Source: a virus
Reading direction: 5' to 3' (one strand)
DNA length: 28,620 nucleotides
Virus record (IMG/VR): IMGVR_UViG_3300050158_000039
Location: 1 to 28,620 of that record
Positions within the stretch are counted from its first letter, which is position 1, and each line of letters starts with the position of its first letter. Under the pieces are notes generated by a model. It worked only from the letters and a program-made list of their open reading frames with translations. It made no database searches and was not told the origin of the DNA. Shown one piece after another: positions 1-22,796 of this stretch. The position numbers were made by a program, and so were the translations under genes.

Positions 1-72
1 CGAATACGTATCATCGTAGTCGTTGTATCCAAAACACAATTCACGACCCTTTATAATTGCTACCTTACGCAC
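1..72 (-). CDS. 5' part of a hypothetical protein (runs off the window)
   Basis: AAGGAG RBS, then GTG at 72; open frame MRKVAIIKGRELCFGYNDYDDTYS. Confidence 0.5.
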   Translation of the reverse strand, partial: MRKVAIIKGRELCFGYNDYDDTYS

Positions 73-92
73 GGCAGTCTCCTTATTGTTAT

Positions 93-157
93 TGGCTGAA
101 TTACCACCCAGCTGAAGCTAGCAAGCTAGCAAGCTGTTTGTACATTAGTGGTAATTC
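93..157 (-). ncRNA. putative small stem-loop RNA ending in CCA
   Basis: 10-bp stem GAATTACCAC/GTGGTAATTC, inner CAGCT/AGCTG stem, 3' AG-CCA; begins 3 nt after the tRNA-Thr CCA. Confidence 0.35.
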
Positions 158-160
158 GAT

Positions 161-235
161 TGGTGCTCCGTGACGGACTCGAACCGCCTTAAACCTGACT
201 ACAAAACAGGACATCACCATCAATGCTTACGGAGC
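161..235 (-). tRNA. tRNA-Thr(UGU)
   Basis: Acceptor GCTCCGT/ACGGAGC-ACCA, anticodon loop TT-TGT-AG, T-loop TTCGAGT. Confidence 0.85.
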
Positions 236-266
236 ATGAATAAATATATGACCAAAGGATTTGATC

Positions 267-701
267 ATGAAATTGCTAGAACTATTTGATACCGACGTTG
301 CTTGGAAAGAGGTTGTACACAACCCAAAGTTAATCGAGTATCTGGTGACCATTGGTTATGGTCACTTTACCATTACCTTCGAGCAAGTCTCCCAACGAGC
401 AGTAGAGAAGCACGGGCTTGATCCAAATACATGGTTAGTTGAATTCTCTCGTGCCACTGGCCCTGGCGGAAAAGATCCGTACGGAATTACCAACACGGGA
501 AATGCACCCCAAGTACTTGCAGTTGTGACAAAAGCCATGCAAGACTTTGCTGCAAAACACCGTGTGCAATACATGATGTTTAGCGCTCACGAAGAGTCTC
601 GTAAGTCACTATACCGACGCATGATTTCTCGGCTAGGAACATTGGTAAAGGTGTACAACGTCCCAGAAGGGGAGAAGTACATCATCAAAGTGGGAAACTG
701 A
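267..701 (+). CDS. hypothetical protein, probably late/virion-associated
   Basis: ATAAATA at 240-246, AAGGA RBS, N-terminus MKLLELFD resembling processed head proteins. Confidence 0.7.
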   Translation: MKLLELFDTDVAWKEVVHNPKLIEYLVTIGYGHFTITFEQVSQRAVEKHGLDPNTWLVEFSRATGPGGKDPYGITNTGNAPQVLAVVTKAMQDFAAKHRVQYMMFSAHEESRKSLYRRMISRLGTLVKVYNVPEGEKYIIKVGN

Positions 702-766
702 GATAAAGTCGCAACGAGGGTGGATTTCATTAACAGTGAAGTACCTCTGTTAGCTACGCAACAGTT
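696..766 (-). ncRNA. Y-RNA-like structured RNA, copy 1 (tRNA-Asn-type loop CUGUUAA)
   Basis: Terminal stem AACTG/CAGTT; motifs GCGTAGC, TACTTCA and GCGACTTTATCTCAG shared with copy 2; middle stem covaries. Confidence 0.7.
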
Positions 767-767
767 C

Positions 768-920
768 GGGGAAGCGTGGAGGACTCAAACCTCCGAGCGG
801 CCATGCGCGCTTAGCCTTTTCTACAACCATTACACGATCAACCATTCGTGCGGCAGGAATCGAACCTGCGTAGTACCATACCGAGTGGGACTCGAACCCA
901 ATACTCTCCTTTACGCTTCC
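768..920 (-). ncRNA. tRNA-like RNA with three T-arm hairpins
   Basis: 8-bp closing stem GGAAGCGT/ACGCTTCC; T-arms at 886-900, 853-869 and 778-794. Confidence 0.65.
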
Positions 921-923
921 AGT

Positions 924-998
924 TGGTTGCCAGTGGGAATTCCGAGATCCCGACCTTCGCCTTATCAAGACGCTGCTCTGCCTCTGAGCTAACCGGCA
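924..998 (-). tRNA. tRNA-Ile(GAU), atypical T-loop
   Basis: Loop TT-GAT-AA, D-arm GCTCAGAGGCAGAGC, T-loop CTCGGAA, 3' ACCA. Confidence 0.8.
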
Positions 999-1004
999 AT
1001 AAAT

Positions 1005-1078
1005 TGGTCCCTTCGTCGGGAATCGGACCCGCGTCTATCGGTTATCAGCCGATTGCTCTCCCACTGAGCTACGAAGGG
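1005..1078 (-). tRNA. tRNA-Ile(GAU)
   Basis: ATCGG-CTGATAA-CCGAT; acceptor CCCTTCG/CGAAGGG-ACCA; T-loop TCCGATT. Confidence 0.85.
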
Positions 1079-1082
1079 AAGT

Positions 1083-1156
1083 AAACTGAGATAAAGTCGC
1101 CGTGACGGATTTGGTTTCATTAAAAGTGAAGTAGCCGTCGTGCTACGCAGCAGTTT
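1083..1156 (-). ncRNA. Y-RNA-like structured RNA, copy 2 (tRNA-Lys-type loop CUUUUAA)
   Basis: Terminal stem AAACTG/CAGTTT; same conserved motifs as 696-766; middle stem GACGG/CCGTC. Confidence 0.7.
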
Positions 1157-1231
1157 AGTACCCACAGTAGGACTCGAACCTACAACCGGTCGCTAATCGG
1201 GCAACAGCTCTACCAATTGAGCTATGCGGGT
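1156..1231 (-). tRNA. tRNA-Ile(GAU)-like with non-canonical anticodon loop (possible pseudo-tRNA or decoy)
   Basis: Canonical D and T arms; loop CC-GAT-TA (C33, U37); 3' end ACTA rather than ACCA. Confidence 0.65.
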
Positions 1232-1237
1232 ATAATT

Positions 1238-1313
1238 TGGTGGACCTAGAGGGAATCGAACCCTACTTACAACGTACTTGCAAGGCACGTCAGTAACCCC
1301 ATTACTTAAGCCC
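1238..1313 (-). tRNA. tRNA-Ala(UGC)
   Basis: Loop CT-TGC-AA; G3:U70 Ala identity pair; 3' ACCA. Confidence 0.88.
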
Positions 1314-1323
1314 ATGAGATTTT

Positions 1324-1399
1324 TGGTAGACCGCCGGAGGATCGAACTCCGATAAAGCCTGGGTAAGAGCCAGGTGCATAACCATTCTGCCAACGGTCC
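1324..1399 (-). tRNA. tRNA-Lys(CUU)
   Basis: CCTGG-CTCTTAC-CCAGG; T-loop TTCGATC; 3' ACCA. Confidence 0.85.
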
Positions 1400-1407
1400 A
1401 TTTAATT

Positions 1408-1482
1408 TGGTAGGGCGCCCCAGATTCGAACTGGGTTCTCTCTGCTTAAGAGGCAGGACTTCACCATCAAAGTTTGCACCCC
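1408..1482 (-). tRNA. tRNA-Lys(CUU)
   Basis: CTGC-CTCTTAA-GCAG; T-loop TTCGAAT; 3' ACCA. Confidence 0.85.
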
Positions 1483-1490
1483 AAATTTTG

Positions 1491-1814
1491 CTAAATTTCT
1501 ATTAGCCCAGCGTGGTGTTTTCTGTGACAATTTGCACACAATACAACACACTTGGCAATCTCCGCTCGAACTCTATCATCGTTCATTGCTAACATAGAAG
1601 AAACGGTTTGGTCTTTTCCTCCTAAATGGTGGAAATCTAGGCACACCACATTCATTTCTGAACACTTAACACATCCGTTACGTTTAGCTTCAGCAATGAT
1701 CGAACGCGTTCGATCACGTCTCGCTTTTTGGTTAGCTTGGTACGTTTCTTTGTTGTTTGCGTAATGTTCTTGCGCTTTGGTTCGATGGTATTCTTTGGTC
1801 TGATATTCTTTCAT
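1491..1814 (-). CDS. HNH endonuclease (free-standing homing type)
   Basis: CVKC...LDFHH...KCVVLCANCHRKHH zinc-HNH signature; GGAGA RBS. Confidence 0.85.
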   Translation of the reverse strand: MKEYQTKEYHRTKAQEHYANNKETYQANQKARRDRTRSIIAEAKRNGCVKCSEMNVVCLDFHHLGGKDQTVSSMLAMNDDRVRAEIAKCVVLCANCHRKHHAGLIEI

Positions 1815-1818
1815 AATT

Positions 1819-1857
1819 TCTCCTGGTTCGAATATATTTAGTAATCGAACCAGGAGA
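1819..1857 (-). promoter_or_regulatory. RBS-occluding hairpin with a late-promoter-like TAAATA in its loop
   Basis: 13-bp inverted repeat TCTCCTGGTTCGA/TCGAACCAGGAGA covering the HNH RBS. Confidence 0.7.
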
Positions 1858-1867
1858 GGCTTTTTTG

Positions 1868-1943
1868 CTCCGCATCTGGGTAACGATCCCAGCTAATCAT
1901 TGATTAACAGTCAAGTCCGTGCACCAAGCTCGAATTCTGCGGA
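1868..1943 (-). tRNA. tRNA-Asn(GUU), divergent, no encoded CCA
   Basis: TTGA-CTGTTAA-TCAA; G discriminator; T-arm CTGGG-ATCGTTA-CCCAG. Confidence 0.75.
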
Positions 1944-1959
1944 ATAGAAATGTATTTTG

Positions 1960-2034
1960 CTCCGCGACCAGGAGTTGAACCCGGCTAATCTGCATTAACA
2001 GTGCAGCGGTTGTCACCACGACGCCTCTCGCGGA
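1960..2034 (-). tRNA. tRNA-Asn(GUU), no encoded CCA
   Basis: CTGCA-CTGTTAA-TGCAG; acceptor TCCGCGA/TCGCGGA-G. Confidence 0.82.
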
Positions 2035-2051
2035 GCAAAATACACATTCTT

Positions 2052-2137
2052 TGGTCCTCCGGGTGGGACTCGAACCCACTGTGTCATTACGACGGCTGAT
2101 TAAAAGTCAGCTACCCGACCAGTTAGGTGTCCGGAAG
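2052..2137 (-). tRNA. tRNA-Lys(UUU) with a long variable arm
   Basis: GCTGA-CTTTTAA-TCAGC; variable region CGTCGTAATGACACA; 3' ACCA; 86 nt. Confidence 0.82.
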
Positions 2138-2151
2138 AAAAGAAACACATC

Positions 2152-2167
2152 AAATTGTAAAAGAGCA
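2152..2167 (-). promoter_or_regulatory. rrn-type boxA antitermination element
   Basis: TGCTCTTTTACAATTT versus E. coli rrn TGCTCTTTAACAATTT; upstream TCGCC/GGCGA hairpin could act as boxB. Confidence 0.7.
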
Positions 2168-2263
2168 AGCGTTTTACCACAACTCTCGCCGGTGCTCACA
2201 TTTTGGCGACGCGGAATCGGAGAATGTTTGTGATAACTTAGCTAACAAAAAAGCCCTTGAGCT

Positions 2264-2295
2264 TCTTTTGAAAAGGGTTAACCCTTTTCAAAAGA
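2264..2295. repeat. perfect 32-bp palindrome overlapping the HNH stop codon and a terminator-like hairpin
   Basis: TCTTTTGAAAAGGGTT|AACCCTTTTCAAAAGA. Confidence 0.9.
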
Positions 2296-2752
2296 TCACT
2301 TGAATACCAGCGTGATGCTCACGGTGGCAATTACTGCACAACACCACACACTTTTTAATCTCTTGTTCTATCATTTCTATAGTTATATGTTGGTCTAATA
2401 CGGCTTGTGAAATGCTGAATGATTTGGTGTTACCATCAATGTGATGCAAGTCCATCGCCTGTTTGCACTTATCATATCCACAAGCAGCGCATCGTACTTT
2501 TACACCATCAATAATTTCACGTTTAGGTTGGACCAAACGTTCGTGCCTGCGTCTATGACTTCGCACAGCCCCAGGCAACTTCATCGCGTGCTTGTTATAG
2601 CAACCGCTGCACCTAGAATGATATGCCACATATCCCGACTTTGTGGTTCCGTGTGTGGGGAACTCACTGGGCGGTTTATCCGTGTTGCAGTCTCGACAGT
2701 GCAACGTGGGCCTGTGTTGTTTTGGTATCCATCCTTCTTTCGTTTTAGGCAT
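2288..2752 (-). CDS. HNH endonuclease with N-terminal zinc finger
   Basis: CRDC...CSGC; CAAC...DLHH...KCVVLCSNCHREHH; TATAAATA at 2774-2781; GGAG RBS. Confidence 0.85.
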   Translation of the reverse strand: MPKTKEGWIPKQHRPTLHCRDCNTDKPPSEFPTHGTTKSGYVAYHSRCSGCYNKHAMKLPGAVRSHRRRHERLVQPKREIIDGVKVRCAACGYDKCKQAMDLHHIDGNTKSFSISQAVLDQHITIEMIEQEIKKCVVLCSNCHREHHAGIQVIF

Positions 2753-2830
2753 CTTAATTTACTCCGGTTTGAGTATTTATAAGAGCCCTGGTTTTCGTTT
2801 TACTTTTTCTGGGCTTTTGTTGAGCCCAAC

Positions 2831-2860
2831 AAAAAACCCACCGTGACTTCTCAGGGTGGG
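2831..2860 (-). terminator. attenuator terminator
   Basis: CCCACC-CTGA-GAAG-TCAC-GGTGGG followed by TTTTTT; the 5' arm overlaps AGAGCCC, which is complementary to GGGCTCT at 2899-2905. Confidence 0.85.
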
Positions 2861-2888
2861 CTCTTGTGTTAACTTGCGTTATGCTTCG

Positions 2889-2972
2889 TTAAGCGCGGAG
2901 AGCCCCCTGCGATGTTTTAATCGCATTATTTGTCACTGCCTTGGCGGTAATAACGGTGTTGAAGTTCATCAT
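2889..2972 (-). CDS. attenuator leader peptide MMNFNTVITAKAVTNNAIKTSQGALRA
   Basis: 27 codons plus TAA, translated by hand; weak GAAAG SD; stop codon lies inside the antiterminator region. Confidence 0.75.
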   Translation of the reverse strand: MMNFNTVITAKAVTNNAIKTSQGALRA

Positions 2973-3050
2973 TTGCTTTCGAAGTCATTGCCTCTCAGTG
3001 AGGCGTACAAGTATTTATGTCAGTTGCCTGAAAAGTTTTCAATTGCGTTT

Positions 3051-3079
3051 ATTATAACTGAGGGTCAAGTAAACGTCAA
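3051..3079 (-). promoter_or_regulatory. sigma70 promoter of the tRNA operon
   Basis: TTGACG-17 nt-TATAAT; an additional ATAAATA at 3012-3018. Confidence 0.85.
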
Positions 3080-3172
3080 CAGGTGAATTTTACTTGCCGT
3101 CAAACACAAACGCGTTCGTCTAGTTGTTACTATCTGCTATTGATAAATAGAAGTCAACAGGAGATTTTGGGT

Positions 3173-4714
3173 ATGTTGTTCATTCATCTTACAGAAATGG
3201 CTGCAGCTAAGCTGTGTCCCACTTGCGGCAAGACCATGGCTGCAAATCACTACTGGTATAAGGGCGCTTGGAAATGTAAAGGTGCAAGTAAACAACAAGC
3301 ACAAAACCCAACCATCGCAGCCGCTAAGGCGGAGCCCGAAGACGCCACCGAACAACCAACCGATGCGTCGAACTTTACGCAACCAGAAGATCAAAGTCAA
3401 CAGATTACCCCCGTACCCGCAGAACCAGACACAGCAACCGGACCAATTCACGTCTTTGCGTTATCGTTTGTTGTTGACGTTATCGAAGACGCAATGCCAG
3501 TGCTTGAGAAGGAGCTCACGAAGATCAACAAGATTGCTGCACGAGTTGGCGCTGACCCTGTGGAGCTCAAACAACTGGGCGTCGTCTTCAAGGACGCTGA
3601 ATCTCCGGGGAAGACGACAAAGTTCAAACAAAAGTTCATTACTGTTGAGCTTATCGGAGCAGCGCCACGTATTCAATCGGCTGACGGTAAGTTTTGGGAG
3701 TTCATTGGTGTAATCTCTCCGTCAGCCTCAGGCAAAGCTGTGCTCAATCTAGTCCCCGGCACTGAAGACACCGACGGTGTCCGCAAGCTCGCTTCGTCCA
3801 ATCCTTATTACTGCGATTACTGCCGGAAGGTTCGTCAGCGCAATGAGACCTTCATTGTTACTGACGGTACTGCATATCGACAGGTTGGTCGTAATTGTCT
3901 GAAGGACTTCATTGGTAGTGCTGACCCTGCTGCTCTGCTTAGTTTCTTCGGGTTCTTTCAAAATGCGGCTGACTTCAAGAGCCACATGTTGAATATGGCG
4001 ATGCGTGGCGCAAACAAGGGTGCTGGTTATGAAAAGATGTACCTGAAGCCGCGTGACATTTTAGCAACAACTATGGCCGCCATTGATGTTGTTGGCCATT
4101 ATGTGCCGGCCAAAACAGAGACTGGCGTTAGTACTGCTCAGCGAGTTCGGGAAGCGATGTGGGGGTCGGTATACCACGACGGCATTGCTGAAAAGATTTC
4201 CGACAAGATGGACGATCAGCAGTACAAGACAGAAGCTGATGACATCATCAACTGGTTCAATAGCCTACCACAAGCGGAAATTGACGCCAATACATATTAC
4301 CAAAACGTCAAGACTATGATTGACGACGATGCTGTTGAGACAAGATTCTTAGCGTACGTTGTTGGTCTGTATGCCGCGTGGAAGCGCGCTCAGCCCAAGC
4401 CAGCCGCTACTGCAACACCCCAGTTAACAAAGGATTGGCCACAAGCGTGGGGCAACGGACCTCAACCTGTAACCAAGGAGCATGCTGTTGTCAAGTTTGT
4501 GAAAGACGTTAATGGTCAGTACGGCACTTCGCAGCTGATTTTGCTGATGCTCGACAATGGTCAGGGAGTGTCGTGGTTCTACAGCGGGCGCAATACTGTG
4601 GAAAAGGACGATGAGTTTGAGCTGACCGGTGAGTTCCACAAAGACTCGTACCACAATCCACCAACGGTCAAGTTTGTGCCAGATCGCAAATGGCTACGAA
4701 GCGCGTTCCAATAA
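3173..4714 (+). CDS. phage protein with zinc-binding motifs, function unknown
   Basis: CAGGAG RBS, ATAAATA at 3143-3149; CPTC, CDYC...QVGRNCLKDFIG; possible C-terminal OB-like domain. Confidence 0.75.
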   Translation: MLFIHLTEMAAAKLCPTCGKTMAANHYWYKGAWKCKGASKQQAQNPTIAAAKAEPEDATEQPTDASNFTQPEDQSQQITPVPAEPDTATGPIHVFALSFVVDVIEDAMPVLEKELTKINKIAARVGADPVELKQLGVVFKDAESPGKTTKFKQKFITVELIGAAPRIQSADGKFWEFIGVISPSASGKAVLNLVPGTEDTDGVRKLASSNPYYCDYCRKVRQRNETFIVTDGTAYRQVGRNCLKDFIGSADPAALLSFFGFFQNAADFKSHMLNMAMRGANKGAGYEKMYLKPRDILATTMAAIDVVGHYVPAKTETGVSTAQRVREAMWGSVYHDGIAEKISDKMDDQQYKTEADDIINWFNSLPQAEIDANTYYQNVKTMIDDDAVETRFLAYVVGLYAAWKRAQPKPAATATPQLTKDWPQAWGNGPQPVTKEHAVVKFVKDVNGQYGTSQLILLMLDNGQGVSWFYSGRNTVEKDDEFELTGEFHKDSYHNPPTVKFVPDRKWLRSAFQ

Positions 4715-4740
4715 AAAAAGCCCCTTCTGGGGCTTTTTTT
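4713..4740. terminator. bidirectional intrinsic terminator
   Basis: A-tract, AGCCCC-TTCT-GGGGCT, T-tract between convergent genes. Confidence 0.9.
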
Positions 4741-4769
4741 ATAGTGGCTGAAGATATGTTATCTACGCA

Positions 4770-5840
4770 CTAACTAGCGTAGATTTGATTCTTCACGGCT
4801 TGAACGCGGTGGTTGATGATCGTCTGACGAATCTGTGATTTATCAGCCACAGACGCAGCCACAGCAGCGGCATCTACTGACTTTGCTCGAGTCAGCACAC
4901 CGTCCAAGCTCGTAGCAACCTTGGGGCCAAACACGAATCGCAAGTATTCGACAGTTTGGTGAACCAATGTGGGGTCGGAGAAAGCACGCATCTGATCCAA
5001 CACCGTCACCTGTTCTTCAGCACACGACCGGTCGAACAGGCGCAATTGAACGCTGTGCTTGCTCGCAGCCAACGGAACACGTTGCATGTCAGACGGGATT
5101 TTACAATCCGCCATTTCTTGCTTGGACATGCCGGCTGCGACCAATGCTACTCGCACATACATCGGCGTACCTGATTCGACAACGGCCAAAAGCGGAAGAA
5201 CTTGGCTGTGTGCGAACGGACGCATGCAATCAACGTCCAATGCACCACATTGTTCGAGTACCCTGAACATTCGATACGGGAGTGCTTCCGTCAGTCCCTT
5301 TTCAATCTCAGCCCAAATCCGTTCACGAGGAACGTACGCCAGCTCAGGTGCAACCTGTCGCATCAACTCCAGTGTGTCATTCGCGACGGTGAAACCATAT
5401 CGAGCAGCGAACCGAGCAGTGCGCAGCACTCGAACAGGGTCTTCTGCAAACGCCACGCTTGTGTGGCGCAGCACACGCTGCGCAATGTCGTGCTGGCCGC
5501 CGTGCGGATCGATCAGTTTGTACGTATCGTCAGTGATGTCAACAGCCATCGCATTGATCGTCAAGTCACGCCGGTACAGGTCATCTTCCAGTGTGATCGT
5601 AGGATCAAACCGAGTCTCAAACCCGTTGTATCCAACACCCGTCTTGCGTTCTTGCCGAGCCAACGCATATTCATCACCGGTTTCGGGATGCAGGAACACA
5701 GGGAATCCTGCACCAACTTGCTGAAAGCCTTGGGCCAGCATGTCTTCTGCAGTGGCACCGACAACCACATAGTCACGGTCCTTCGGCACGATGCCCATCA
5801 CCATGTCGCGTACAGCACCGCCCGTGAGATAAATCTTCAT
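4770..5840 (-). CDS. cca: class II tRNA nucleotidyltransferase (CCA-adding enzyme), apparently without an HD domain
   Basis: [34 protein letters not shown]; start at MKIYLTGG. Confidence 0.93.
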
Positions 5841-5895
5841 AGTAGCTCCTTCTAATGCTCCTCCGACTATAAATAAGATCAGGAGGATTGACAAC

Positions 5896-6681
5896 ATGGG
5901 GCGGAAGCGCATCACACAACAAGAATATATCAATCGCGCAAACAGTATACACCAATCTAAGTATGATTACAGCATGACTAATTACACAACCATGGCTGAC
6001 AAAATTACCGTCAGTTGCCCAACACATGGATTGTTTGAGGTGTTAGCTTCCAATCATGTTAAACAATTAAAAACACCGTCAACCCAACACTTAGCTGCAA
6101 ACGGATGTCCCAAGTGTGGGGTTCTCAGTGTCATACAACGCAATAAGCAGGGGCGGCGCCCCTTTGCTGATTTTGTTAGAGAGGCTGAAGAGACTCACAA
6201 CGGCCAATACCAATATAGTGAGGAGGGTTACCGTGGTGTGGATAACAAAGTAAACATTACGTGTCCACACCACGGGGTCTTTCAGCAGCAGGGGAGTAAT
6301 CACTTGCGAGGTACCGGATGTCCTAAATGCAAGAACTCAAGGGGTGAGACTCAAATTGCTCGCAGCCTGACTACACACGGAATCCCGTACATGCAACAAC
6401 ATAGCTTTGAGGGATGTATTGGCGATGCTGGTAAACCATTAAAGTATGATTTTTGGTTACCATCTATTAACACAGCAATTGAATACGATGGCGAGCAGCA
6501 TTTTCATCCTGTTCGGTTTCATCAAGGTATGACAAATGAGCAGGCCGTCCAAATGTTTGAACGCACTGTTCGCTATGACAAATACAAAGATGCCTTTGCA
6601 GAGACTGTTGGCATCAAACTAATTCGTATTCCATACTTTAACCGTTGCTGGATTGGGGACATTATTGCGGGATTGGTGTGA
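5896..6681 (+). CDS. putative homing endonuclease (zinc-ribbon repeats plus PD-(D/E)xK/Vsr-like domain)
   Basis: Repeated CPxHG..F and GCPKC; YDFWLP...IEYDGEQHF; TATAAATA at 5868-5875. Confidence 0.8.
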
Positions 6682-6708
6682 TTGCGCCACCAACCAAATA
6701 AACTTTCA

Positions 6709-7026
6709 TCATTGTCTCCCAATGTGCTTCAGAAATCCATCCATCAGGCCACTGATGTTACGAACACCAACGGAATTTTGAGAATGGATGCTATAGGCGA
6801 ATGTGTCAGGAATCGGCAGCTTGCCGTCCAAGTGTTGATCGATGATCCAATGGATCACACGCATTGAGGTGTCATCGCCGCCGAGGTCGTGATCGAAAGT
6901 GATCTCAACAGGCATTCCGTGCTTAGTGATCAGGTTGATCGCTTCTTCGGAAGTGCGAGCAATCCACCACCGATTCGGATTCGTTGGATGCCGTTCGTCA
7001 TCAATAAACAGATGCCAGTTGAACAT
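6709..7026 (-). CDS. cyclic-phosphate-processing receiver-domain protein
   Basis: LFIDDER, FDHDLG and IHSQNSVG motifs. Confidence 0.8.
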   Translation of the reverse strand: MFNWHLFIDDERHPTNPNRWWIARTSEEAINLITKHGMPVEITFDHDLGGDDTSMRVIHWIIDQHLDGKLPIPDTFAYSIHSQNSVGVRNISGLMDGFLKHIGRQ

Positions 7027-7031
7027 AAAGA

Positions 7032-7088
7032 AAACTCCTGATAACTTTCGTTAAGCAGGAGTTTACTATGCGTAGGGTAAAACGTCAA
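7032..7088 (-). promoter_or_regulatory. sigma70 promoter overlapping an RBS-covering/terminator hairpin
   Basis: TTGACG-17-TAAACT (7088-7060); inverted repeat AAACTCCTG/CAGGAGTTT. Confidence 0.6.
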
Positions 7089-7091
7089 CGC

Positions 7092-7859
7092 TTACGGTTT
7101 CATACCAGCCTTCAGGGCATTTTTCATGATTACATTCATGATTTGCTGCGATTGCTGACCAGCATACTTTGCAACAGCTGCCTGCAGAGCCTTCGGACCG
7201 TTTTGGCCTAGGACACGGAAAGCTGCCAACACTTGCTGCAGAGCCTGTTGAGCCTGTTGTTTTGACGCAGTTAGTTGAGCCGTGGTCTTTTCACTGGCGC
7301 GACGGGCGTCGGCTTGCTGTGATGCTTGAGCACCCGCTTGTTTGATATCTGACACGGCACGACCAACGCCTGATTGAGAAATCTTTTGGCCGGTTGCTTG
7401 CGCAGCGCCCTTCAAGAAGTCCCACGGTCCTTCGTTCAGCAGCCCAGCTTCGGCCTGATCGCGCATGAACTGTTCAAACTTGTATTCGTATCCGTACTTG
7501 CCGGGCGTCATGCGCGGCTTGTACTTCGGTTCCTGGGGAGTTGCAGGGGCAGCTTGTTGGGTTGGTTGTCGACCCATCGTTGGCTCAACTCGGTCCGTCA
7601 ACGTAGGAGCGTTCTGTTGAACGGCTTTCAACACCTTAGCATACGTGCTGTATGCCTGGACAAATGCGCGGACTGCCTTGTCAAGGTTACCAGCTTGTGA
7701 TGCAGCTTGGCCAGCCTGAACGATGTCTTGCATTGGTTGCGCGTATTGCTTGATCCGCTGGGCTGCGCTGTTAGCGATTTTGTTGCCAGCAGCACCGGCA
7801 GCACCCTTCAAGAAGTCCCACGGAGCTTCGTCGAGGCGGTTTACTTTCTTCAAACTCAT
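7092..7859 (-). CDS. Ala/Gln-rich hypothetical, probable virion-internal protein with internal duplication
   Basis: LDEAPWDFLKGAA and LNEGPWDFLKGAA; 20-bp direct repeat at 7408-7427 and 7804-7823. Confidence 0.75.
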   Translation of the reverse strand: MSLKKVNRLDEAPWDFLKGAAGAAGNKIANSAAQRIKQYAQPMQDIVQAGQAASQAGNLDKAVRAFVQAYSTYAKVLKAVQQNAPTLTDRVEPTMGRQPTQQAAPATPQEPKYKPRMTPGKYGYEYKFEQFMRDQAEAGLLNEGPWDFLKGAAQATGQKISQSGVGRAVSDIKQAGAQASQQADARRASEKTTAQLTASKQQAQQALQQVLAAFRVLGQNGPKALQAAVAKYAGQQSQQIMNVIMKNALKAGMKP

Positions 7860-7861
7860 GA

Positions 7862-8044
7862 TTAGTCCTTGTGCTGGTATTCGTCCGGATCGTACTTGCG
7901 ATACGGCTTGTTCTTAGTCTTCACGTAGTCACGGTGATACACAGCCTTAGCAGCTTTCTTTAGCGGCTTCTTTTTCTTGGCACCTTCATCAAGTTGCATC
8001 AATTCGCGCAGCAGTGACATTTCAGGTTGCTGTTCTGTTGACAT
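7862..8044 (-). CDS. small basic hypothetical protein
   Basis: MSTEQQPEMSLLRELMQLDEGAKKKK; tightly spaced with its neighbours. Confidence 0.65.
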   Translation of the reverse strand: MSTEQQPEMSLLRELMQLDEGAKKKKPLKKAAKAVYHRDYVKTKNKPYRKYDPDEYQHKD

Positions 8045-8045
8045 G

Positions 8046-8486
8046 TTAGTTACCTTTCTTAGAGGCACGGAGGAACCACGCCCATTTATTGTGTTGTTCA
8101 ATACGTCCAGCAAGGAAATTCATCAATCCTTGCAGGTTTTGTCCTTGGGCCGCTTTGAGTGCAGCTGTCAACGAAGTTATGACTGTTTGGTTATCAGTAT
8201 ACAGCGCATCCAACATTTCTTGCGCCGACAACGGTTTGTTGGCATCCTCGATTGAAGACAGCTCTTGGAAGCGTGAGAAACTTGCGGGGGTGTACGTTCC
8301 CAGCGTGCGAATCTGTTCAGCCATCGGATCGATCGAATCATACACGTCAGTGTAGATCGTCTCGAACAGCTTGTGCATTTGGTAGAAGTCGAAACCTTCA
8401 ACGTTCCAGTGGAAGTTGGCAGTCTTCAGGTAGAGTGAAAAAACATCTGCGAATGCAGTTTTCATTTGTGTCCGGACTTCTTCCAT
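8046..8486 (-). CDS. dps: Dps-family ferritin-like protein
   Basis: HWNVEG.DF...HKLFE..Y...D..AEQIR.LG signature; GAGG RBS. Confidence 0.9.
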   Translation of the reverse strand: MEEVRTQMKTAFADVFSLYLKTANFHWNVEGFDFYQMHKLFETIYTDVYDSIDPMAEQIRTLGTYTPASFSRFQELSSIEDANKPLSAQEMLDALYTDNQTVITSLTAALKAAQGQNLQGLMNFLAGRIEQHNKWAWFLRASKKGN

Positions 8487-8493
8487 AGTAACC

Positions 8494-8694
8494 TCACGTT
8501 GCATCGGCATTGTTGTAATGCCAGATGGTGTTAATTAGGCTGTTCTCAGCCTTGTCTGAAGTCGGAGCACCCTTCTTCTTTTTCTTCTTTTTAGAATCTG
8601 TGGGCAGCTGCACGTACGTCTCACCGCCATTGGTGATATCATCAACGCTCTCTTGAACAGGTGCTTTGGAAAGCAGCTCACGCAACAAATTCAT
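8494..8694 (-). CDS. small hypothetical protein with poly-Lys tract
   Basis: GGAG RBS, ATAAATA at 8714-8720, N-terminus MNLLRELL. Confidence 0.7.
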   Translation of the reverse strand: MNLLRELLSKAPVQESVDDITNGGETYVQLPTDSKKKKKKKGAPTSDKAENSLINTIWHYNNADAT

Positions 8695-8719
8695 GGTGAT
8701 TCTCCGTAGTGAGTATTTA

Positions 8720-8869
8720 TTACTCGTCTCCGGATAACACCTGTAGAAGCTCTTCGCGCAGTTGATGCGCAAGATCGATCGCAACGTAAAATTGATTCTC
8801 ATCCTCATTAAGTGTGAGGATTAAAGAGTCGATTGCGTCGACTATTTCATCAGTAGTTAATAGGTCCAT
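8720..8869 (-). CDS. small acidic hypothetical protein (49 aa)
   Basis: Hand translation MDLLTTDEIVDAID...LSGDE; below the ORF-track cutoff. Confidence 0.55.
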   Translation of the reverse strand: MDLLTTDEIVDAIDSLILTLNEDENQFYVAIDLAHQLREELLQVLSGDE

Positions 8870-8917
8870 GTCGCCTTGGGGGTGGTTAATTGAACCTATT
8901 TACAACCAGGGGAAAGT

Positions 8918-9097
8918 TTAGCCAAATAATACCTGTTTACCGTCGTTAGTAACGGGCACAATCTCCGCCAACATGCGCTGTTCGGGCGGTAGTTGTAGCA
9001 GTGTTGCCTCTGCTAGTTGGCGCGATGGCAGGTTGATTGCCACAACACGTCCCTGGATGATCACATTGAAGAATGTTTGACTGATTTCTGTAAGCAT
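8918..9097 (-). CDS. small hypothetical protein (59 aa)
   Basis: Hand translation MLTEISQTFF...KQVLFG; GGGAG RBS inside the 9103-9142 hairpin. Confidence 0.6.
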   Translation of the reverse strand: MLTEISQTFFNVIIQGRVVAINLPSRQLAEATLLQLPPEQRMLAEIVPVTNDGKQVLFG

Positions 9098-9153
9098 AGG
9101 TGCTCCCTCAAAACAAGTATCTACTCAGGTATTTTGAGGGAGTTACCTATCTC

Positions 9154-9432
9154 TCAGTACACGTCCCCATTATCGGTGATCTTTTGGTTCTCATACGGAG
9201 CTGCGTACCGCCGGTACAGTTCCAACTTAGTACACTCCAGAACGCCAATCGCTTCATTGAGCTCAGCGTACTTTTGGATGTATGACCGTTGCAGTAGTTG
9301 AGTGAATACGTAGTTGAGGTTGCCACAGTGTGTGTTTGTTGGGTCATCACTTTCCAGACCACGCAGCTCATTGAGTAGCTGGTCAATCACCGGGTCGAGG
9401 ACAGCACGCTTGTTTTGTGTAATGTATGGCAT
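9154..9432 (-). CDS. conserved phage protein (DUF6899-like)
   Basis: MPYI...GNLNY...LECTKLELYRR.AAPYE..KI..NGDVY pattern, recognised from memory. Confidence 0.7.
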   Translation of the reverse strand: MPYITQNKRAVLDPVIDQLLNELRGLESDDPTNTHCGNLNYVFTQLLQRSYIQKYAELNEAIGVLECTKLELYRRYAAPYENQKITDNGDVY

Positions 9433-9442
9433 ATCGTTTCCT

Positions 9443-10186
9443 TTATCGAGCGTCTCCGCTCCGTACAGTTATTTGTTGTTCCATTCCGGCTGTTTCCAGA
9501 TAATCCAGGAAGAATTGATACCGGTCGGCATGAGATTCAAATGTGGTCTTCACCAGTTCAACGCACGTCTTGCAGTATAGAGGTGACACTCGAGACACAA
9601 AGTGTGCTTTGTGCTTTTCTTCTGCCTCACCGCATAGCGAGCACAAGTAGTGAGAGCCTGACCGGCGGTTGCCGTATGCGTCACGCTTCAGGATGCCTTT
9701 GGGAAGGTTCTGGAGGTAGTCGTACAACGCACCAAAGTCATTGAAGATTTTGGTTGTTTCTGCTTGCATCCACCCCGGCACCTGTTTCAGCTCTCCGTAG
9801 GTGTTAACCAGGAACACAGGGATGTCAAGCATGAACGCTTCGTGCACCTCACTCGTAGTACCTGCGCCGCGTCGAACCGATTCATCATACAGGATAATCA
9901 CAGCATCAGTGTCGTTGCGAATAAGTGCAATGTCAGTATCGATGAAGTGCTTTCGGATGTTTGACTTGCGTTGAAGGATTTCCGAATCATCCATGAACCG
10001 ATACAAGTGACCGTGGGTATCGGAATACGCTAGATCGAGTTCTGCGATGTCTAGAGGGAAGAATCCCATCTCTTTCAAGTGCTTGCTGCATTCGCGCCGC
10101 CAGTCTGCTCCCAGTCCATCCGGAGCAAATTGCATGCCTCCAGACAGGTAGATATTGCCCAGCGGAAATTGTGGATGTTTTAGCAT
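9443..10186 (-). CDS. nucleoside 2-deoxyribosyltransferase-like protein with C-terminal zinc finger
   Basis: IYLSGGM...WR...D..LI...DAVI...GTTSE; CSLC...CKTC. Confidence 0.7.
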   Translation of the reverse strand: MLKHPQFPLGNIYLSGGMQFAPDGLGADWRRECSKHLKEMGFFPLDIAELDLAYSDTHGHLYRFMDDSEILQRKSNIRKHFIDTDIALIRNDTDAVIILYDESVRRGAGTTSEVHEAFMLDIPVFLVNTYGELKQVPGWMQAETTKIFNDFGALYDYLQNLPKGILKRDAYGNRRSGSHYLCSLCGEAEEKHKAHFVSRVSPLYCKTCVELVKTTFESHADRYQFFLDYLETAGMEQQITVRSGDAR

Positions 10187-11556: not shown

Positions 11557-11972
11557 TCGTCTCGTAGTTCCATCAGGATCTTGCCGAGCATGTTCTTTCC
11601 GTTGCTGGAACCAGCCGGACAAACGCCCCAGAACTTGTCGTTCCACCAATTGCCTTCTTCGAGATGTTGACCAGCGGTTGCGATCAGTCGCTGTTTGAGG
11701 TCTGGGTTTTGTTCAAACTTTGCGCGAACAATCTCCTTCATCAAGTCAACCTTGACTGATTCCCAATCTGGACGCAGCAAAACGTGCTTACCAGCACGTT
11801 TTGCAACGCCTGGTGACTTCATCCGTGAGAACGTTAGCCGCACATCCCGATCGAGGGACTTGGCGGCTTGATACGCATGTTCGCTGGTCGGCCAGACGAT
11901 ATTATCCCACACCATTTCCGCATGTGCGAAATTGGACAGGAATGCATTTTCTCCGTCGAACGTCTTAATCAT
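11547..11972 (-). CDS. NADAR (YbiA-like) family protein
   Basis: FLSNF, TSEHAYQAAK, KFEQNPDL, EGNWWNDKFWG, GKNMLGKILMELR. Confidence 0.92.
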   Translation of the reverse strand: MIKTFDGENAFLSNFAHAEMVWDNIVWPTSEHAYQAAKSLDRDVRLTFSRMKSPGVAKRAGKHVLLRPDWESVKVDLMKEIVRAKFEQNPDLKQRLIATAGQHLEEGNWWNDKFWGVCPAGSSNGKNMLGKILMELRDEWL

Positions 11973-12805
11973 TTCTTGATCCACCCAAGTTTTTGTGACA
12001 GCACATCGAAGAAGTTCCAAGAAGCGAGGTGCAGAATCTTGGCTGTGGTGATGTGGGGTCGAATTTGAATTTCATACGGCTTCTCTTCCGTATACACCTG
12101 ACGGCCTCGCGACACCGTCTGCCCATCATGGCGCACTGCAATCGTACCACCCCACACCGACAGACGAATCGTGTCACGTGCATCTGTGATGATCGGGCGA
12201 GACGTCATGGTCAGGGGGGCAACCGGCACGATCTGGATAACCGACAAGTTCGGCATGATCAGGGCACCGCCAGCAGACAACGAATACGCAGTACTGCCCG
12301 TAGCTGTTGAAATCAGGATGCTGTTTGCTTTGTGCACTCCGGCAAACGCATGGCCGACCAGCAGCTTGTAAGAAATCATCGAGTCGCTTTGAGCGCGTGA
12401 GACCGAGACTTCATTGCCTGCAAACATGTCAGAGGCGCTAGACCACAACACAATGCGGCGGTCAATCATTGTTGGTTCTGTGTCATTGATTACGCTAGCG
12501 ATTTGTTTCTTGATCTGAGCCAGGTGATCTTGGTCATTGCCGTGCTCAAAGTCAGTCAGGAAACCAACCTTCCCCATGTTGATACCAATTGCTGTTGCAT
12601 CGAACTGCGCTGCGAGTCGAAGTGCTTGCAACATAGTTCCGTCACCGCCAATCGCCACAATCAGCGTATCGGGCAAGACTTGATCGAGATCGACCATCCG
12701 CGCCCCCTCCTTGACAGCAACTTGACACACCGCCTCAACGACCCGACGAACCTTCGGATCTTGCTCACTGTTCAGTTTTGCAACAATGTGTACGGTACGA
12801 AACAT
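11969..12805 (-). CDS. nadK: NAD kinase
   Basis: GGDGT, GIN.GKVGFL, NE motif, TATGSTAYSLSAGG. Confidence 0.93.
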   Translation of the reverse strand: MFRTVHIVAKLNSEQDPKVRRVVEAVCQVAVKEGARMVDLDQVLPDTLIVAIGGDGTMLQALRLAAQFDATAIGINMGKVGFLTDFEHGNDQDHLAQIKKQIASVINDTEPTMIDRRIVLWSSASDMFAGNEVSVSRAQSDSMISYKLLVGHAFAGVHKANSILISTATGSTAYSLSAGGALIMPNLSVIQIVPVAPLTMTSRPIITDARDTIRLSVWGGTIAVRHDGQTVSRGRQVYTEEKPYEIQIRPHITTAKILHLASWNFFDVLSQKLGWIKK

Positions 12806-12925
12806 TATTCTGGCCTTGTGTATGGAGATAACGCGACTATATCCAATCGAATTAGCTTTGACAACAGCCAAGCTTTCACATCACCGTACGATAAATATCG
12901 CGTACTGACGTGAAAGTAACATCCC

Positions 12926-19713: not shown

Positions 19714-21150
19714 TTACGCCCTTTCGCTGTTGGCACGAACCTCTTCGAACGTGTATTCCTTGAGGATCTTGCCGTTACGGAACACCTCAACAAGCACGTT
19801 TTCAGTCGGAGTCTTGATGAAATCATCCTCCGGCAGCGTGTAGTACTTGCCATCCGACAACGTGCGGACGAGCTTCAGGCGTCCTCGCTTGGAGCGCTTG
19901 CCGCTGTCAGTGATCGGATCCTTGTACACGTCGTACCAGCGAGTCGTCTTGTTGCCCCAAGACGCATCATCGTCTTGTTCGTGGAAGCCGTTAATGGCAA
20001 TCGCAGAGCACTTCATCGCGAACTTTTGCGTGTCGCGGTTGATACCTTGCAGCAGAGCACCGCCCATACCGAACGCCACGTTGTCGGCACTGTAACCAGC
20101 ATCGATCAGAGCCTTCAGGATTTCACGGATCGATTCCTCGTTGATGCCGTCGCCTTGGATCACACGGACGTGGTTCAGCACCTTGTAGCCCTTAGCATTC
20201 ACCACCGAACCGAACTGCTTGTCGAGAATCTGGACGACCTTCAGCACCACGGTTGCGGGATGACCCGAGTCAGGACGCACGACCAGCATGCCACCACCTG
20301 CGATCACTTCTGCCTTCAGCTCCTTGCCCCAGATGTTTTCGCACGCGTTGTAGATGTCGTATGAGTCAGACACCACTGCGTAGATTGATCCAGGCTTGCT
20401 GAACTGCTTGATCATGTTGCGGTACGCTTCCGCTTCACCCTTACGGCCGAACGGAGTGATCGTGCTGTGCTCAGCAGCAGGAATCGAGAAGCCGACCATT
20501 GCCTTGGTGTTGTAGTACTTGCGCGCGAACAGGATGCCAGTGATCGTGTCCGAGCCCATGAAGTTGACCAAGTGAGCCGCACCGCCAAGACCAGCGGATT
20601 CATACGAGCTGACGCCGCGAGCACCGAAGTCGTGCAGCTTGAACGGCAGACCAGCAACATCGCCAGTCAGTTCGAGCGCTTCCTTGATCACTTGCTTGAT
20701 CGACCAGCTTTGGGTGGCAACAGTGGTCATATACCACACAGCACGCAGGATCATCGTTTCGCAGTACGAAACCAGCCAAGCGCACTTGTCGTCAGTGGAT
20801 TCCACCGTGACGAGGACGTTGTGGGTCGGGATGATGAGGCCTTCGGGAACAGCCTTGATCGACAGTGGCAGATAGCCGTCATACTTTTCCAGGATGTATT
20901 CCCAACCTTCGCGGTTGAAAGGCTCACCGTGTGCTGCGAGAAACTCAGCAGCTTCTTCGATATCTTCGCGAGTGATCGGCTTACACAGCGTTTCCTTCAA
21001 CAGTGGCTGAAGACCGACAAACTCTGTCTTGTCATACACACCACCACGACTCTCGATGTACGAGAACTGGTTCACAGTGCCAGGAGGGGTTTGTAGGAAG
21101 TGACTCGGCTTGTACGAGTCAGTGTTGAGAATCAGATTGATTAGAGACAT
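19714..21150 (-). CDS. nadV: nicotinamide phosphoribosyltransferase (NAMPT)
   Basis: TDSYKPSH, LHDFGARG, SIPAAEHS, VSDSYD, VRPDSG, IQGDG, FGMGGALLQ; AAGGAG RBS. Confidence 0.95.
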   Translation of the reverse strand: MSLINLILNTDSYKPSHFLQTPPGTVNQFSYIESRGGVYDKTEFVGLQPLLKETLCKPITREDIEEAAEFLAAHGEPFNREGWEYILEKYDGYLPLSIKAVPEGLIIPTHNVLVTVESTDDKCAWLVSYCETMILRAVWYMTTVATQSWSIKQVIKEALELTGDVAGLPFKLHDFGARGVSSYESAGLGGAAHLVNFMGSDTITGILFARKYYNTKAMVGFSIPAAEHSTITPFGRKGEAEAYRNMIKQFSKPGSIYAVVSDSYDIYNACENIWGKELKAEVIAGGGMLVVRPDSGHPATVVLKVVQILDKQFGSVVNAKGYKVLNHVRVIQGDGINEESIREILKALIDAGYSADNVAFGMGGALLQGINRDTQKFAMKCSAIAINGFHEQDDDASWGNKTTRWYDVYKDPITDSGKRSKRGRLKLVRTLSDGKYYTLPEDDFIKTPTENVLVEVFRNGKILKEYTFEEVRANSERA

Positions 21151-21251
21151 GGCAAAACTCCTTTGCATGATGGTGATGCATCACCAGTCTATCCGGTGAG
21201 CGATTTTTGTCGGTGTTTGAGGTTCCGACCTCCTATCTCTTCATGCTGAAG

Positions 21252-21681: not shown

Positions 21682-22158
21682 GTACTTACGAGTCGGTGGA
21701 ATCCACCGATACCAATCTTTGACCTCTTGAACGATCGGTTCAAAATTGTCGTGAACTGTGACAGTAGGATACTCCATCTCTAACTGCTTTTCAACGTCAA
21801 ACTTACGGGGGTAAGCTGGGTGGCAGCCAACAAACATTGTTCGCCGAGCAACTGACGCCTGTCCAAGTTCAAACAGCGTGATTGGACACAGTGTGTTGTA
21901 CGGGAACCAAAAGATCATGGCGTCGCACATACGAATGTGACGATACTCCCAATCAATCTGAAACTCAGACTGCGTGGGATCAGAAATGTCAAACGATGAG
22001 CGGCGTGGGTTGACCAGAACGAAGTCGTCAGGCATGTATTTGAACCGGTCAATCATTTCCTTTTGCCAATCTGGGCACCCCGAAATGCCGCCGCCGAGGA
22101 AGACGCGCACAGAGCCATCATTCTTCGTCAATTCAGTAGGACACTCAATTACTTTCAT
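21679..22158 (-). CDS. nucleoside 2-deoxyribosyltransferase-like protein
   Basis: VFLGGGI.GCPDWQ, NPRR, QIDWEY, FWFP..TLCPITLFELG. Confidence 0.85.
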   Translation of the reverse strand: MKVIECPTELTKNDGSVRVFLGGGISGCPDWQKEMIDRFKYMPDDFVLVNPRRSSFDISDPTQSEFQIDWEYRHIRMCDAMIFWFPYNTLCPITLFELGQASVARRTMFVGCHPAYPRKFDVEKQLEMEYPTVTVHDNFEPIVQEVKDWYRWIPPTRKY

Positions 22159-22768
22159 CATCGTTCTCCGCTTGTTTCAACACGGGGTATAACTGTTCAG
22201 CTAACGTTCCCATTTTGGAGTGATCACCAGGATCTCTTCCAGCCGTACGCATGATTTCACTGCATTTGTGCCAGTTGATCAATCCTGCTATTGTGTGTCC
22301 AGCTTCGCTCATACCAATCTCGAGATACATCCGGCACTCTAGGTAGTTGCGCCATGAGAATCCTTCATATGTGTCACACTTGACGGCGTTACGTACGAAT
22401 TCAGGGGGGAGGTATTCATCTTCAATCGCAACGTAGTGCGACACTTCTGGGTGGTTATCCAACCACCACCGGATTTCATGACACCGGTAACTGGACAACT
22501 TACGGGGTGTGATCCAATCTTCGTGCAGAAACGTCTCATCAATTCCGTTTGCTGCTAGGACTTGGACAACAGCATCGCGGCCTTTTACGCCCCACGTACT
22601 AGAAATCACCAACTTGGCATTAGCGTCTTCCAATAGTCGCAACAACAGGGAAACAGCGCATGGATCAAATACCGTCACCAGCGGCTTAGTTTGGTTAAGC
22701 ATGTAGTATGCTCGAACCGGAATCATTGGACCATCAATGTCCAAGAAAATAATTTTGGGGTTAGTCAT
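22145..22768 (-). CDS. HAD-family phosphatase (Swiss-army-knife RNA-repair type)
   Basis: IIFLDIDG, LVISSTW, EIRWWL...YVAIED. Confidence 0.8.
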   Translation of the reverse strand: MTNPKIIFLDIDGPMIPVRAYYMLNQTKPLVTVFDPCAVSLLLRLLEDANAKLVISSTWGVKGRDAVVQVLAANGIDETFLHEDWITPRKLSSYRCHEIRWWLDNHPEVSHYVAIEDEYLPPEFVRNAVKCDTYEGFSWRNYLECRMYLEIGMSEAGHTIAGLINWHKCSEIMRTAGRDPGDHSKMGTLAEQLYPVLKQAENDDESN

Positions 22769-22796
22769 TATGACTATTATACGAGGCGGCGCTGGA

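What the first reader, a model, noticed from the sequence alone, without database searches (positions are those of the whole stretch)
696..1156. Two paralogous Y-RNA-like RNAs displaying tRNA-Asn and tRNA-Lys anticodon loops (possible nuclease decoys)
Seen: 696-766 and 1083-1156 share AACTG..GCGTAGC..TACTTCA-CT(G/T)TTAA-TGAAA..GCGACTTTATCTCAGTT. Their middle stems differ in sequence but both pair (AAC-GAGG/CCTC-GTT versus GACGG/CCGTC), which is covariation. The apical TTCA/TGAA hairpin carries CUGUUAA (the tRNA-Asn GUU loop) in one copy and CUUUUAA (the tRNA-Lys UUU loop) in the other. Neither has an acceptor/T arm or CCA. Established: tRNA-Lys(UUU) is the PrrC and PARIS target, and tRNA-Asn is a colicin E5 target. 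Inference: the scaffold recalls bacterial Ro60-binding Yrl RNAs (from memory, not searched), and these RNAs could be decoys or sensors for anticodon nucleases co-induced with the tRNAs.
Basis: partly seen in the sequence, partly recalled or inferred. Interest (0 to 1): 0.85.

Follow-up and report, generated by a model that had tools for sequence, protein, structure and literature searches.

The report
Phage Y RNAs with anticodon tips
Two 73-base RNA genes in a jumbo phage's tRNA cluster are minimal partner RNAs ("Y RNAs") of the phage's own Ro60 protein, each tipped with a copy of a tRNA anticodon loop; that they act as decoys for tRNA-cutting defences is plausible but untested.

Summary
Observation confirmed. 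Window 695-767 and 1083-1156 (minus strand) are paralogous ~73-nt hairpin RNAs in a jumbo-phage tRNA array, identical in independent assemblies. A covariance model built only from other phages' Ro60-linked RNAs finds exactly these two in 183 kb. The scaffold covaries strongly and carries variants of the published YrlA motifs. Ro60 is absent from the contig, but overlapping contigs place a TROVE+vWA Ro60 gene 12.3 kb downstream on the same strand. So they are minimal YrlB-like Y RNAs, though below every Rfam threshold. The tips match tRNA-Asn(GUU) and tRNA-Lys(UUU) loops. In loci picked by Ro60 alone, 18 of 54 minimal members have a canonical anticodon loop (null 0.6): enriched, not universal. 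The closest complete relative keeps a Lys loop on a different stem. Triplets favour Ser, Asn and Thr; Lys(UUU) is not enriched. The decoy role is inference: no expression, binding or cleavage data. I found no paper on anticodon-tipped Y RNAs, but this scan noted the same design before in at least four other genomes.

The parts
695..767 (-). Minimal Y RNA e1: terminal stem, Ro60-type internal loop, bulged middle stem, NUAC junction, 4-bp tip with tRNA-Asn(GUU)-type loop
   Evidence: Model R1, 27.2 bits, E 3.6e-5; sequence
1083..1156 (-). Minimal Y RNA e2: same scaffold, tip with tRNA-Lys(UUU)-type loop; lies between two tRNA-Ile genes that are adjacent in a relative
   Evidence: Model R1, 31.8 bits, E 2.1e-6; alignment with L399
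728..734 (-). 7-nt anticodon-like loop of e1 (Asn GUU)
   Evidence: sequence; identical to loops of the tRNA-Asn genes at 1867-2034
1118..1124 (-). 7-nt anticodon-like loop of e2 (Lys UUU)
   Evidence: sequence; identical to loop of tRNA-Lys 2052-2137
753..761 (-). 5' strand of putative Ro60-binding loop of e1 (variant of the YrlA GNCGAAG motif)
   Evidence: for the motif; for the family range; binding inferred
1142..1150 (-). 5' strand of putative Ro60-binding loop of e2
   Evidence: as for e1
925..2137 (-). Host tRNA array (Lys, Asn, Asn, Lys, Lys, Ala, Ile, Ile, Ile-like) from which the two RNAs would be released by tRNA processing
   Evidence: processing is inferred
3051..3079 (-). Sigma70-type promoter (11 of 12 matches, 17-nt spacer) upstream of the array; candidate promoter of the precursor
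   Evidence: consensus match only
4770..5933 (-). CCA-adding enzyme; used as the anchor to find relatives and other assemblies
   Evidence: Pfam PF01743/PF12627
1..72 (-). Start of a 126-aa gene that runs off the contig end; bridges the window to the contigs carrying Ro60 (gene start 11.6 kb beyond position 1)

Best explanation
The two elements are minimal Y RNAs of the phage's own Ro60. They are co-transcribed with the tRNA array and cut out by tRNA processing (inferred). The terminal stem and internal loop dock Ro60, which stabilises them (inferred from family linkage and from published Ro60-Yrl binding). The middle stem acts as a spacer that presents a 4-bp hairpin with a 7-nt tRNA anticodon-type loop. 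The tip derives from the anticodon arm of longer, permuted tRNA-like family members (layout shown, derivation inferred). It is kept because a host protein that reads anticodon loops recognises it, most likely a tRNA-cutting or tRNA-modifying defence enzyme that the RNP binds as a competing substrate (inferred). My odds: Ro60 partner 0.9; tip read as an anticodon loop by some protein 0.55; that protein a defence nuclease with a decoy effect 0.3.
For: Ro60 link: 20 of 22 viral records chosen from the motif scans encode TROVE; in 97 loci picked by Ro60 protein alone, 112 scaffolds on the Ro60 strand, 5 opposite, 3 in shuffles; among 18 near-complete phages picked by CCA enzyme, 3 of 3 with a model hit have canonical Ro60 against 0 of 15 without (Fisher p 0.0012; kin not corrected). 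Own Ro60: P0128, TROVE+vWA, similar to solved phiLo Ro60, joined to the window by a 1,828-nt 100% overlap, with two more scaffold RNAs just upstream of it. Structure: 95.6% of cells paired, covariation 0.78 against 0.19 shuffled; the two bulged-helix pairs, which my scan did not select for, are paired in 32 of 32 with changes on both sides. Tip: 18 of 54 minimal members have a closed 7-nt Y32-U33-R37 loop, null mean 0.57, maximum 5 in 1000 shuffles. The complete relative G023 has a copy in the same array with a different tip stem and still a Lys (CUU) loop. Triplets are non-random after collapsing by Ro60 lineage: Ser 18 of 80, Asn GUU 12 of 80, Met CAU 0. PrrC cleaves isolated modified anticodon stem-loops (PMC1950546). 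A Ro60-like protein of phage Bas63 counters the Ppl defence (PMC11482910).
Against: Two thirds of minimal members lack a canonical loop, including the two beside this phage's Ro60. Lys(UUU) is not enriched, and in minimal members the AriB target set is not enriched (8 of 41, p 0.24). About 10% of loops carry triplets with no normal tRNA. AriB needs contacts outside the loop and barely cuts the G40 variant that both tips have; PrrC needs ct6A37 (PMC12409363), which a bare hairpin may not receive. Known phage escape uses cleavage-resistant tRNAs rather than bait. Syntenic relatives L397-L399 lack a minimal copy in this part of the array. The CGAA-to-CGUA change seen here weakened binding about 4-fold for phiLo Ro60 (PMC12135203).
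Confidence: 0.5

Rival explanations
1. They are ordinary Ro60 tethers or gates. The work is done by the scaffold, which stabilises Ro60 or brings it to host PNPase as shown for phage phiLo. The anticodon loop is a leftover of the tRNA head from which the T, acceptor and D arms were deleted, kept as a passive cap.
For: Long members carry the same hairpin followed by variable loop, T arm, closed acceptor and D arm, so deletion explains the minimal form. Many minimal tips are not anticodon loops. phiLo Ro60 with Yrl1/Yrl2 binds PNPase and lowers its activity (PMC12135203). Odd triplets occur.
Against: A passive cap need not keep U33, R37 and 7-nt length across 36 Ro60 lineages, nor keep a Lys loop while the stem sequence turns over. 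The A/U-rich tip adds little stability (pair probabilities 0.5-0.8). Triplet bias to Ser and Asn, although shared ancestry could produce it.
Confidence: 0.35
2. The tip is read by housekeeping tRNA machinery (synthetases, t6A, i6A or Q modification enzymes, or the ribosomal decoding site), so the RNP titrates host translation factors or senses tRNA damage instead of baiting a nuclease.
For: Most loops end in A37-A38 after U36 or A36, the contexts for t6A and i6A (contexts from my own knowledge). Asn and Lys synthetases use the anticodon as a main identity element (own knowledge). Bacterial Ro60/Yrl lies in an operon switched on by damaged tRNA (PMC7790460, abstract only).
Against: Ser, the most enriched class, is not recognised by its synthetase through the anticodon (own knowledge). 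No RtcB on the contig; RtcR was not searched. Titrating host factors would also hinder the phage's own tRNAs with the same loops.
Confidence: 0.1
3. They are decaying, non-functional copies.
For: Lowest-range model scores (27-32 bits against 40-60 for many homologues), interrupted middle stem, weak folding, absence from some relatives.
Against: The same interruption is present in the G023 copy and in a third copy on this contig; all invariant motifs are intact in both; the phage keeps a full-length Ro60.
Confidence: 0.05

Closest known systems
YrlB / Yrn2-type short bacterial Y RNAs (S. Typhimurium and M. smegmatis YrlB, D. radiodurans Yrn2; PMC4201824)
   Same: Long hairpin formed by pairing of the two ends, Ro-type motif near the 5' end, encoded with Ro60, processed from tRNA-containing precursors.
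   Different: Described as ending in a small pyrimidine-rich loop, with no anticodon loop reported. Motif here reads UGCGUAG, not GNCGAAG. No Rfam model for them matched.
YrlA (Rfam RF02553; PMC4201824; structure 10.1101/312249)
   Same: Same 5' motif position and YUAY junction; long members of this family score 35-44 bits on RF02553; the tip sits where YrlA has its 'V' hairpin.
   Different: e1 and e2 lack the T, acceptor and D arms that define YrlA and do not match RF02553. YrlA is reported to lack an anticodon loop; these RNAs consist of little else.
Thermus phage phiLo Yrl1/Yrl2 with phiRo60 (PMC12135203; PDB 9L5Y, 9KOP)
   Same: Phage-encoded Ro60 with short stem-bulge-stem RNAs; P0128 matches phiRo60 (E 2e-13).
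   Different: CGAA motif; function proposed through PNPase; the paper never mentions anticodons. I could not place the published Yrl1/Yrl2 in the record; my model hit a different spot there.
Cleavage-resistant phage tRNAs against PARIS, OLD and retrons (10.1101/2024.01.02.573894; PMC12409363)
   Same: Phage RNA in a tRNA array, same isoacceptors (Lys UUU, Asn GUU) as AriB targets.
   Different: Those are full tRNAs that restore translation; these cannot be charged and could only compete or trap.

Membership tests
Bacterial/phage Y RNAs (Yrl class) | Encoded with a Ro60/TROVE gene on the same strand | tested here: met
   Ro60 P0128 12.3 kb downstream, same strand, by overlapping contigs; further than the 4 kb typical in PMC4201824, but two more scaffold RNAs lie directly upstream of it
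Bacterial/phage Y RNAs (Yrl class) | Stem joining 5' and 3' ends, with a bulged helix or internal loop, then a second stem | tested here: met
   Family covariation; e1 and e2 align end to end to the model; middle stem interrupted
Bacterial/phage Y RNAs (Yrl class) | 5' motif GNCGAA(N)G | tested here: inconclusive
   e1 and e2 differ at two positions. The family shows a continuum that includes the GGCGAA form (16 of 106) and CGUA forms beside Ro60
Bacterial/phage Y RNAs (Yrl class) | YUAY junction after the second stem | tested here: inconclusive
   e2 has CUAC (met); e1 has GUAC (first position not a pyrimidine); family NUAC in 106 of 106, required by the scan
Bacterial/phage Y RNAs (Yrl class) | Expressed as a discrete RNA and bound by Ro60 | not testable with these tools
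YrlA (RF02553) | Permuted tRNA domain with T arm, closed acceptor and D arm; Rfam score at least 69 bits | tested here: not met
   No such domain; no RF02553 match over either element at E up to 10
Metazoan Y RNA (RF00019) | Match to the Rfam model | tested here: not met
   No match at E up to 10 in 600-2400
tRNA / split tRNA | Acceptor stem, D and T arms, CCA end | tested here: not met
   Not called by ARAGORN or RF00005
Anticodon-nuclease decoy (functional class) | Loops in homologues are canonical anticodon loops | tested here: inconclusive
   18 of 54, null 0.57: strongly enriched, not universal
Anticodon-nuclease decoy (functional class) | Triplets concentrate on known nuclease targets | tested here: inconclusive
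   Asn GUU and the AriB set enriched over all members (p 0.0007, 0.006, uncorrected), AriB set not in minimal members; Lys UUU not enriched; Ser strongest
Anticodon-nuclease decoy (functional class) | Binds or is cut by a nuclease and protects tRNA | not testable with these tools
   Needs bench work

The most novel reading that the evidence does not exclude
Phages use Ro60-stabilised RNAs as a modular display of anticodon loops that soak up or trap tRNA-targeting defence enzymes: an RNA-based counter-defence, distinct from cleavage-resistant tRNAs, whose specificity is reset by changing three bases.
Probability: 0.3. Interest if true: 0.85.

Novelty: new variant of a known kind. Interest (0 to 1): 0.55.

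Why it matters
What bacterial and phage Y RNAs do beyond tethering PNPase is open, and published YrlA is said to lack an anticodon loop. This family shows the reverse: a Ro60 handle with only an anticodon loop. It is unannotated and missed by Rfam, yet present in cultured phages (Caulobacter CcrColossus, Xanthomonas 10KY502B). It gives a 73-nt construct in which the decoy idea can be tested with single-base changes. If true, it would explain why phages keep Ro60 in tRNA arrays and add a class of RNA counter-defence. If false, it still extends the Y RNA class and supplies a search model.

Tried and rejected
Rfam at gathering and E up to 10: nothing over the elements; the YrlA hits in the genome come from T-arm/D-arm pairs of adjacent tRNAs or long copies. 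Single-sequence folding: no better than shuffles; the plus strand folds slightly better, but tRNA orientation, the promoter and family strand bias fix the minus strand. TROVE, phage-Ro60 profile, DUF2828 and RtcB on the contig: none (the DUF2828 control rang nowhere, so that blank is weak); I first read this as possible loss of Ro60 and rejected it. The vWA protein at C1 27820-29718 is not Ro60 (E 0.11); the 513-aa protein at 3173-4714 had no named look-alike. blastn against named phages gave only tRNA matches; an exact 3' motif scan gave nothing. The first pattern scans fixed parts of the loop, so loop statistics use the Ro60-anchored set; triplet counts use all sets because the triplet was free in every pattern, but positions 32-33 and 37-38 there are selected. 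The last subtype scan was mostly chance matches. Different triplets among copies of one genome are expected by chance and are not used as evidence. P1 and P2 pairing in my scan is partly circular; only the shuffle and strand controls and the unselected bulged-helix pairs are independent. Two Ro60 reviews were not held, so the literature check is incomplete.

Full report
Setting. The window is the first 28.6 kb of a 183-kb phage contig judged 52% complete, with 56 ARAGORN calls (55 tRNA-like genes and one tmRNA). All tRNAs near the finding are on the minus strand, downstream of a sigma70-type promoter at 3079-3051.

Observation. Both elements are as described: 695-767 (e1) and 1083-1156 (e2), 61 of 77 positions identical. 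Other assemblies match this region at 99.98-100%. Neither element is called by ARAGORN or Rfam. Folding alone does not favour the proposed structure; the family fold lies 0.9 and 1.5 kcal/mol above the minimum. The tip loops are identical to those of the phage's tRNA-Asn and tRNA-Lys(UUU) genes in the same array, while the stems differ.

The family. Motif scans gave many homologues, often in runs of 2-5. The shared scaffold is: terminal stem, 5' motif, 8-bp middle stem, NUAC junction, variable insert, middle stem 3' strand, pyrimidine-rich loop, terminal stem. Inserts are a lone anticodon-like hairpin, or that hairpin followed by variable loop, T arm, closed acceptor and D arm (YrlA order), or other hairpins. 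Six further copies with larger heads lie on this contig at 37-44 kb. On 32 minimal members from other phages, 95.6% of cells pair and covariation is 0.78 against 0.19 in shuffles and at most 0.15 when slid; two pairs of a bulged helix that my scan did not require are intact in all 32 with changes on both sides. A model built from these, without the window or its subtype, returns e2 (31.8 bits) and e1 (27.2 bits) as the only hits in the contig.

Link to Ro60. Twenty of 22 viral records taken from the motif scans encode a TROVE protein. In 97 loci chosen by Ro60 protein alone there are 112 scaffolds on the Ro60 strand, 5 on the other and 3 in shuffled sequence. Their 5' motifs run from GGCGAA, matching the published YrlA motif GNCGAA(N)G (PMC4201824), through GGUGAA and GGCGUA to the UGCGUA seen here. 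Long members score 35-44 bits on RF02553, under its cut-off of 69. CcrColossus, a phage reported to have Y RNA-like genes, has several copies upstream of its TROVE gene. Among 18 near-complete phages chosen by their CCA enzyme, the three with a model hit all have canonical Ro60 and none of the other 15 does; four of those 15 have a distant Ro-like match.

The phage's own Ro60. None is on the contig. The complete 350-kb relative G023 is collinear (101 matched proteins, median 56% identity) and its Ro60 lies in the half missing here. A 566-aa TROVE+vWA protein, P0128, 65% identical to it, occurs in the same samples as the window's genes. Locus L568 matches window 1-10072 at 100% and overlaps the Ro60 locus L512 by 1,828 nt at 100%. 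That places the Ro60 start 11.6 kb beyond position 1, on the same strand as e1 and e2. GC (49.4%) and tetranucleotide use agree. Two more scaffold RNAs, without anticodon tips, lie just upstream of it. Its only solved relatives by sequence are the phiLo Ro60 structures.

Are the tips real anticodon mimics? In the Ro60-anchored set, 36 of 54 minimal members have a closed 7-nt loop (null 10.3) and 18 have Y32, U33 and R37 (null 0.57, maximum 5 in 1000). The signal is strong but covers one third. G023 has a minimal copy in the same array with the same interrupted middle stem, a different 5-bp tip stem and a Lys(CUU) loop. Relatives L397-L399 have no minimal copy in the stretch held, and in L399 the two tRNA-Ile genes that flank e2 are adjacent, so e2 is a lineage-specific gain or a clean loss. 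One hundred dereplicated loops show 34 triplets. Collapsed by Ro60 lineage and compared with 916 tRNA genes from the same loci: Ser 18 of 80 (p 2e-6), Asn GUU 12 of 80 (p 7e-4), AriB targets 20 of 80 (p 0.006; not significant in minimal members), Met CAU 0, Lys UUU 1. These tests are uncorrected and kinship is only partly removed.

Mechanism. Shown: sequence, family structure, Ro60 linkage, loop signature. From papers: phage Ro60 binds such RNAs and PNPase (PMC12135203); YrlA lacks an anticodon loop (10.1101/312249); AriB cuts Lys(UUU), Thr(UGU) and more weakly Asn(GUU), needs distal contacts and barely cuts a G40 variant; PrrC needs ct6A37 (PMC12409363); PrrC cuts isolated modified stem-loops (PMC1950546); a Ro60-like protein of Bas63 counters Ppl (PMC11482910). 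Inferred: release by tRNA processing, Ro60 docking, recognition of the tip by an anticodon-reading host protein, and a decoy effect. I put 0.5 on Ro60-bound RNAs with a functionally read tip, of which the nuclease-decoy version is 0.3; 0.35 on a passive leftover tip; 0.1 on housekeeping readers; 0.05 on decay.

Novelty. The scaffold is a known kind (Yrl RNAs, including phage ones). The bare anticodon tip was not found in nine searches of the held literature; two reviews were unavailable. This scan has noted the same design in at least four other genomes and the longer copies in this genome; those notes are not independent evidence, and my reading was recorded before seeing them. Verdict: real, new variant of a known kind, decoy role open; interest 0.55.

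Noticed in passing
window 768-920 (-): tRNA-like RNA with three T-arm-like hairpins inside an acceptor-like stem, directly upstream of e1; not called by ARAGORN.
   Followed up: no
window 925-998 (-): tRNA-Ile(GAU)-like gene with an atypical T arm; Rfam tRNA 39.7 bits, missed by ARAGORN.
   Followed up: no
window 26466-26567 (-): tRNA with about 30 extra bases in the anticodon loop.
   Followed up: no
window 925-2137 (-): This array and its orthologues in relatives hold mostly tRNAs for codons starting with A (Lys, Asn, Ile, Thr), the t6A class, which matches the two tips.
   Followed up: partly
window 1157-1159 (-): The tRNA-Ile just upstream of e2 has no encoded CCA (reads CUA into e2), whereas its orthologue in L399 has one; the phage encodes a CCA-adding enzyme.
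   Followed up: partly
window 11969-12871, 19714-21168, 22145-22882, 27334-27756 (-): NAD kinase, nicotinamide phosphoribosyltransferase, HAD_SAK_2 and weak 2H-SAK RNA-repair-type genes: a counter-defence-like neighbourhood.
   Followed up: no
window 1491-1814 and 2288-2752 (-): Two related small ORFs with Cys/His motifs resembling HNH nucleases inside the tRNA array; no Pfam match.
   Followed up: no
G000:C1 37088, 37524, 37892, 38121, 38823, 44434 (-): Six more scaffold copies with larger heads: anticodon arm plus T arm, permuted tRNA, or a whole tRNA-like body.
   Followed up: partly
G000:C1 54164-54239 and 82523-82865: tRNA with CUA (amber) anticodon and a permuted tmRNA.
   Followed up: no
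L512 3999-4559, 7645-8980, 12240-13337, 15282-16358: Around the phage's Ro60: release-factor-like, ADP-ribosylglycohydrolase, PTH2, a second Gp23-like capsid paralogue and an RNA ligase; similar order in relative L517.
   Followed up: no
L383 3984-4047 (Thermus phage phiLo): A model hit (25 bits) just downstream of the Ro60 gene, whereas the published Yrl1/Yrl2 are described as upstream: possibly an unreported phiLo Y RNA.
   Followed up: no
L385 2100-2930 (Caulobacter phage CcrColossus): Five long scaffold copies upstream of TROVE, one annotated as tRNA-Gln and one with an Asn(GUU) loop, plus two shorter model hits at 1720-1900.
   Followed up: partly
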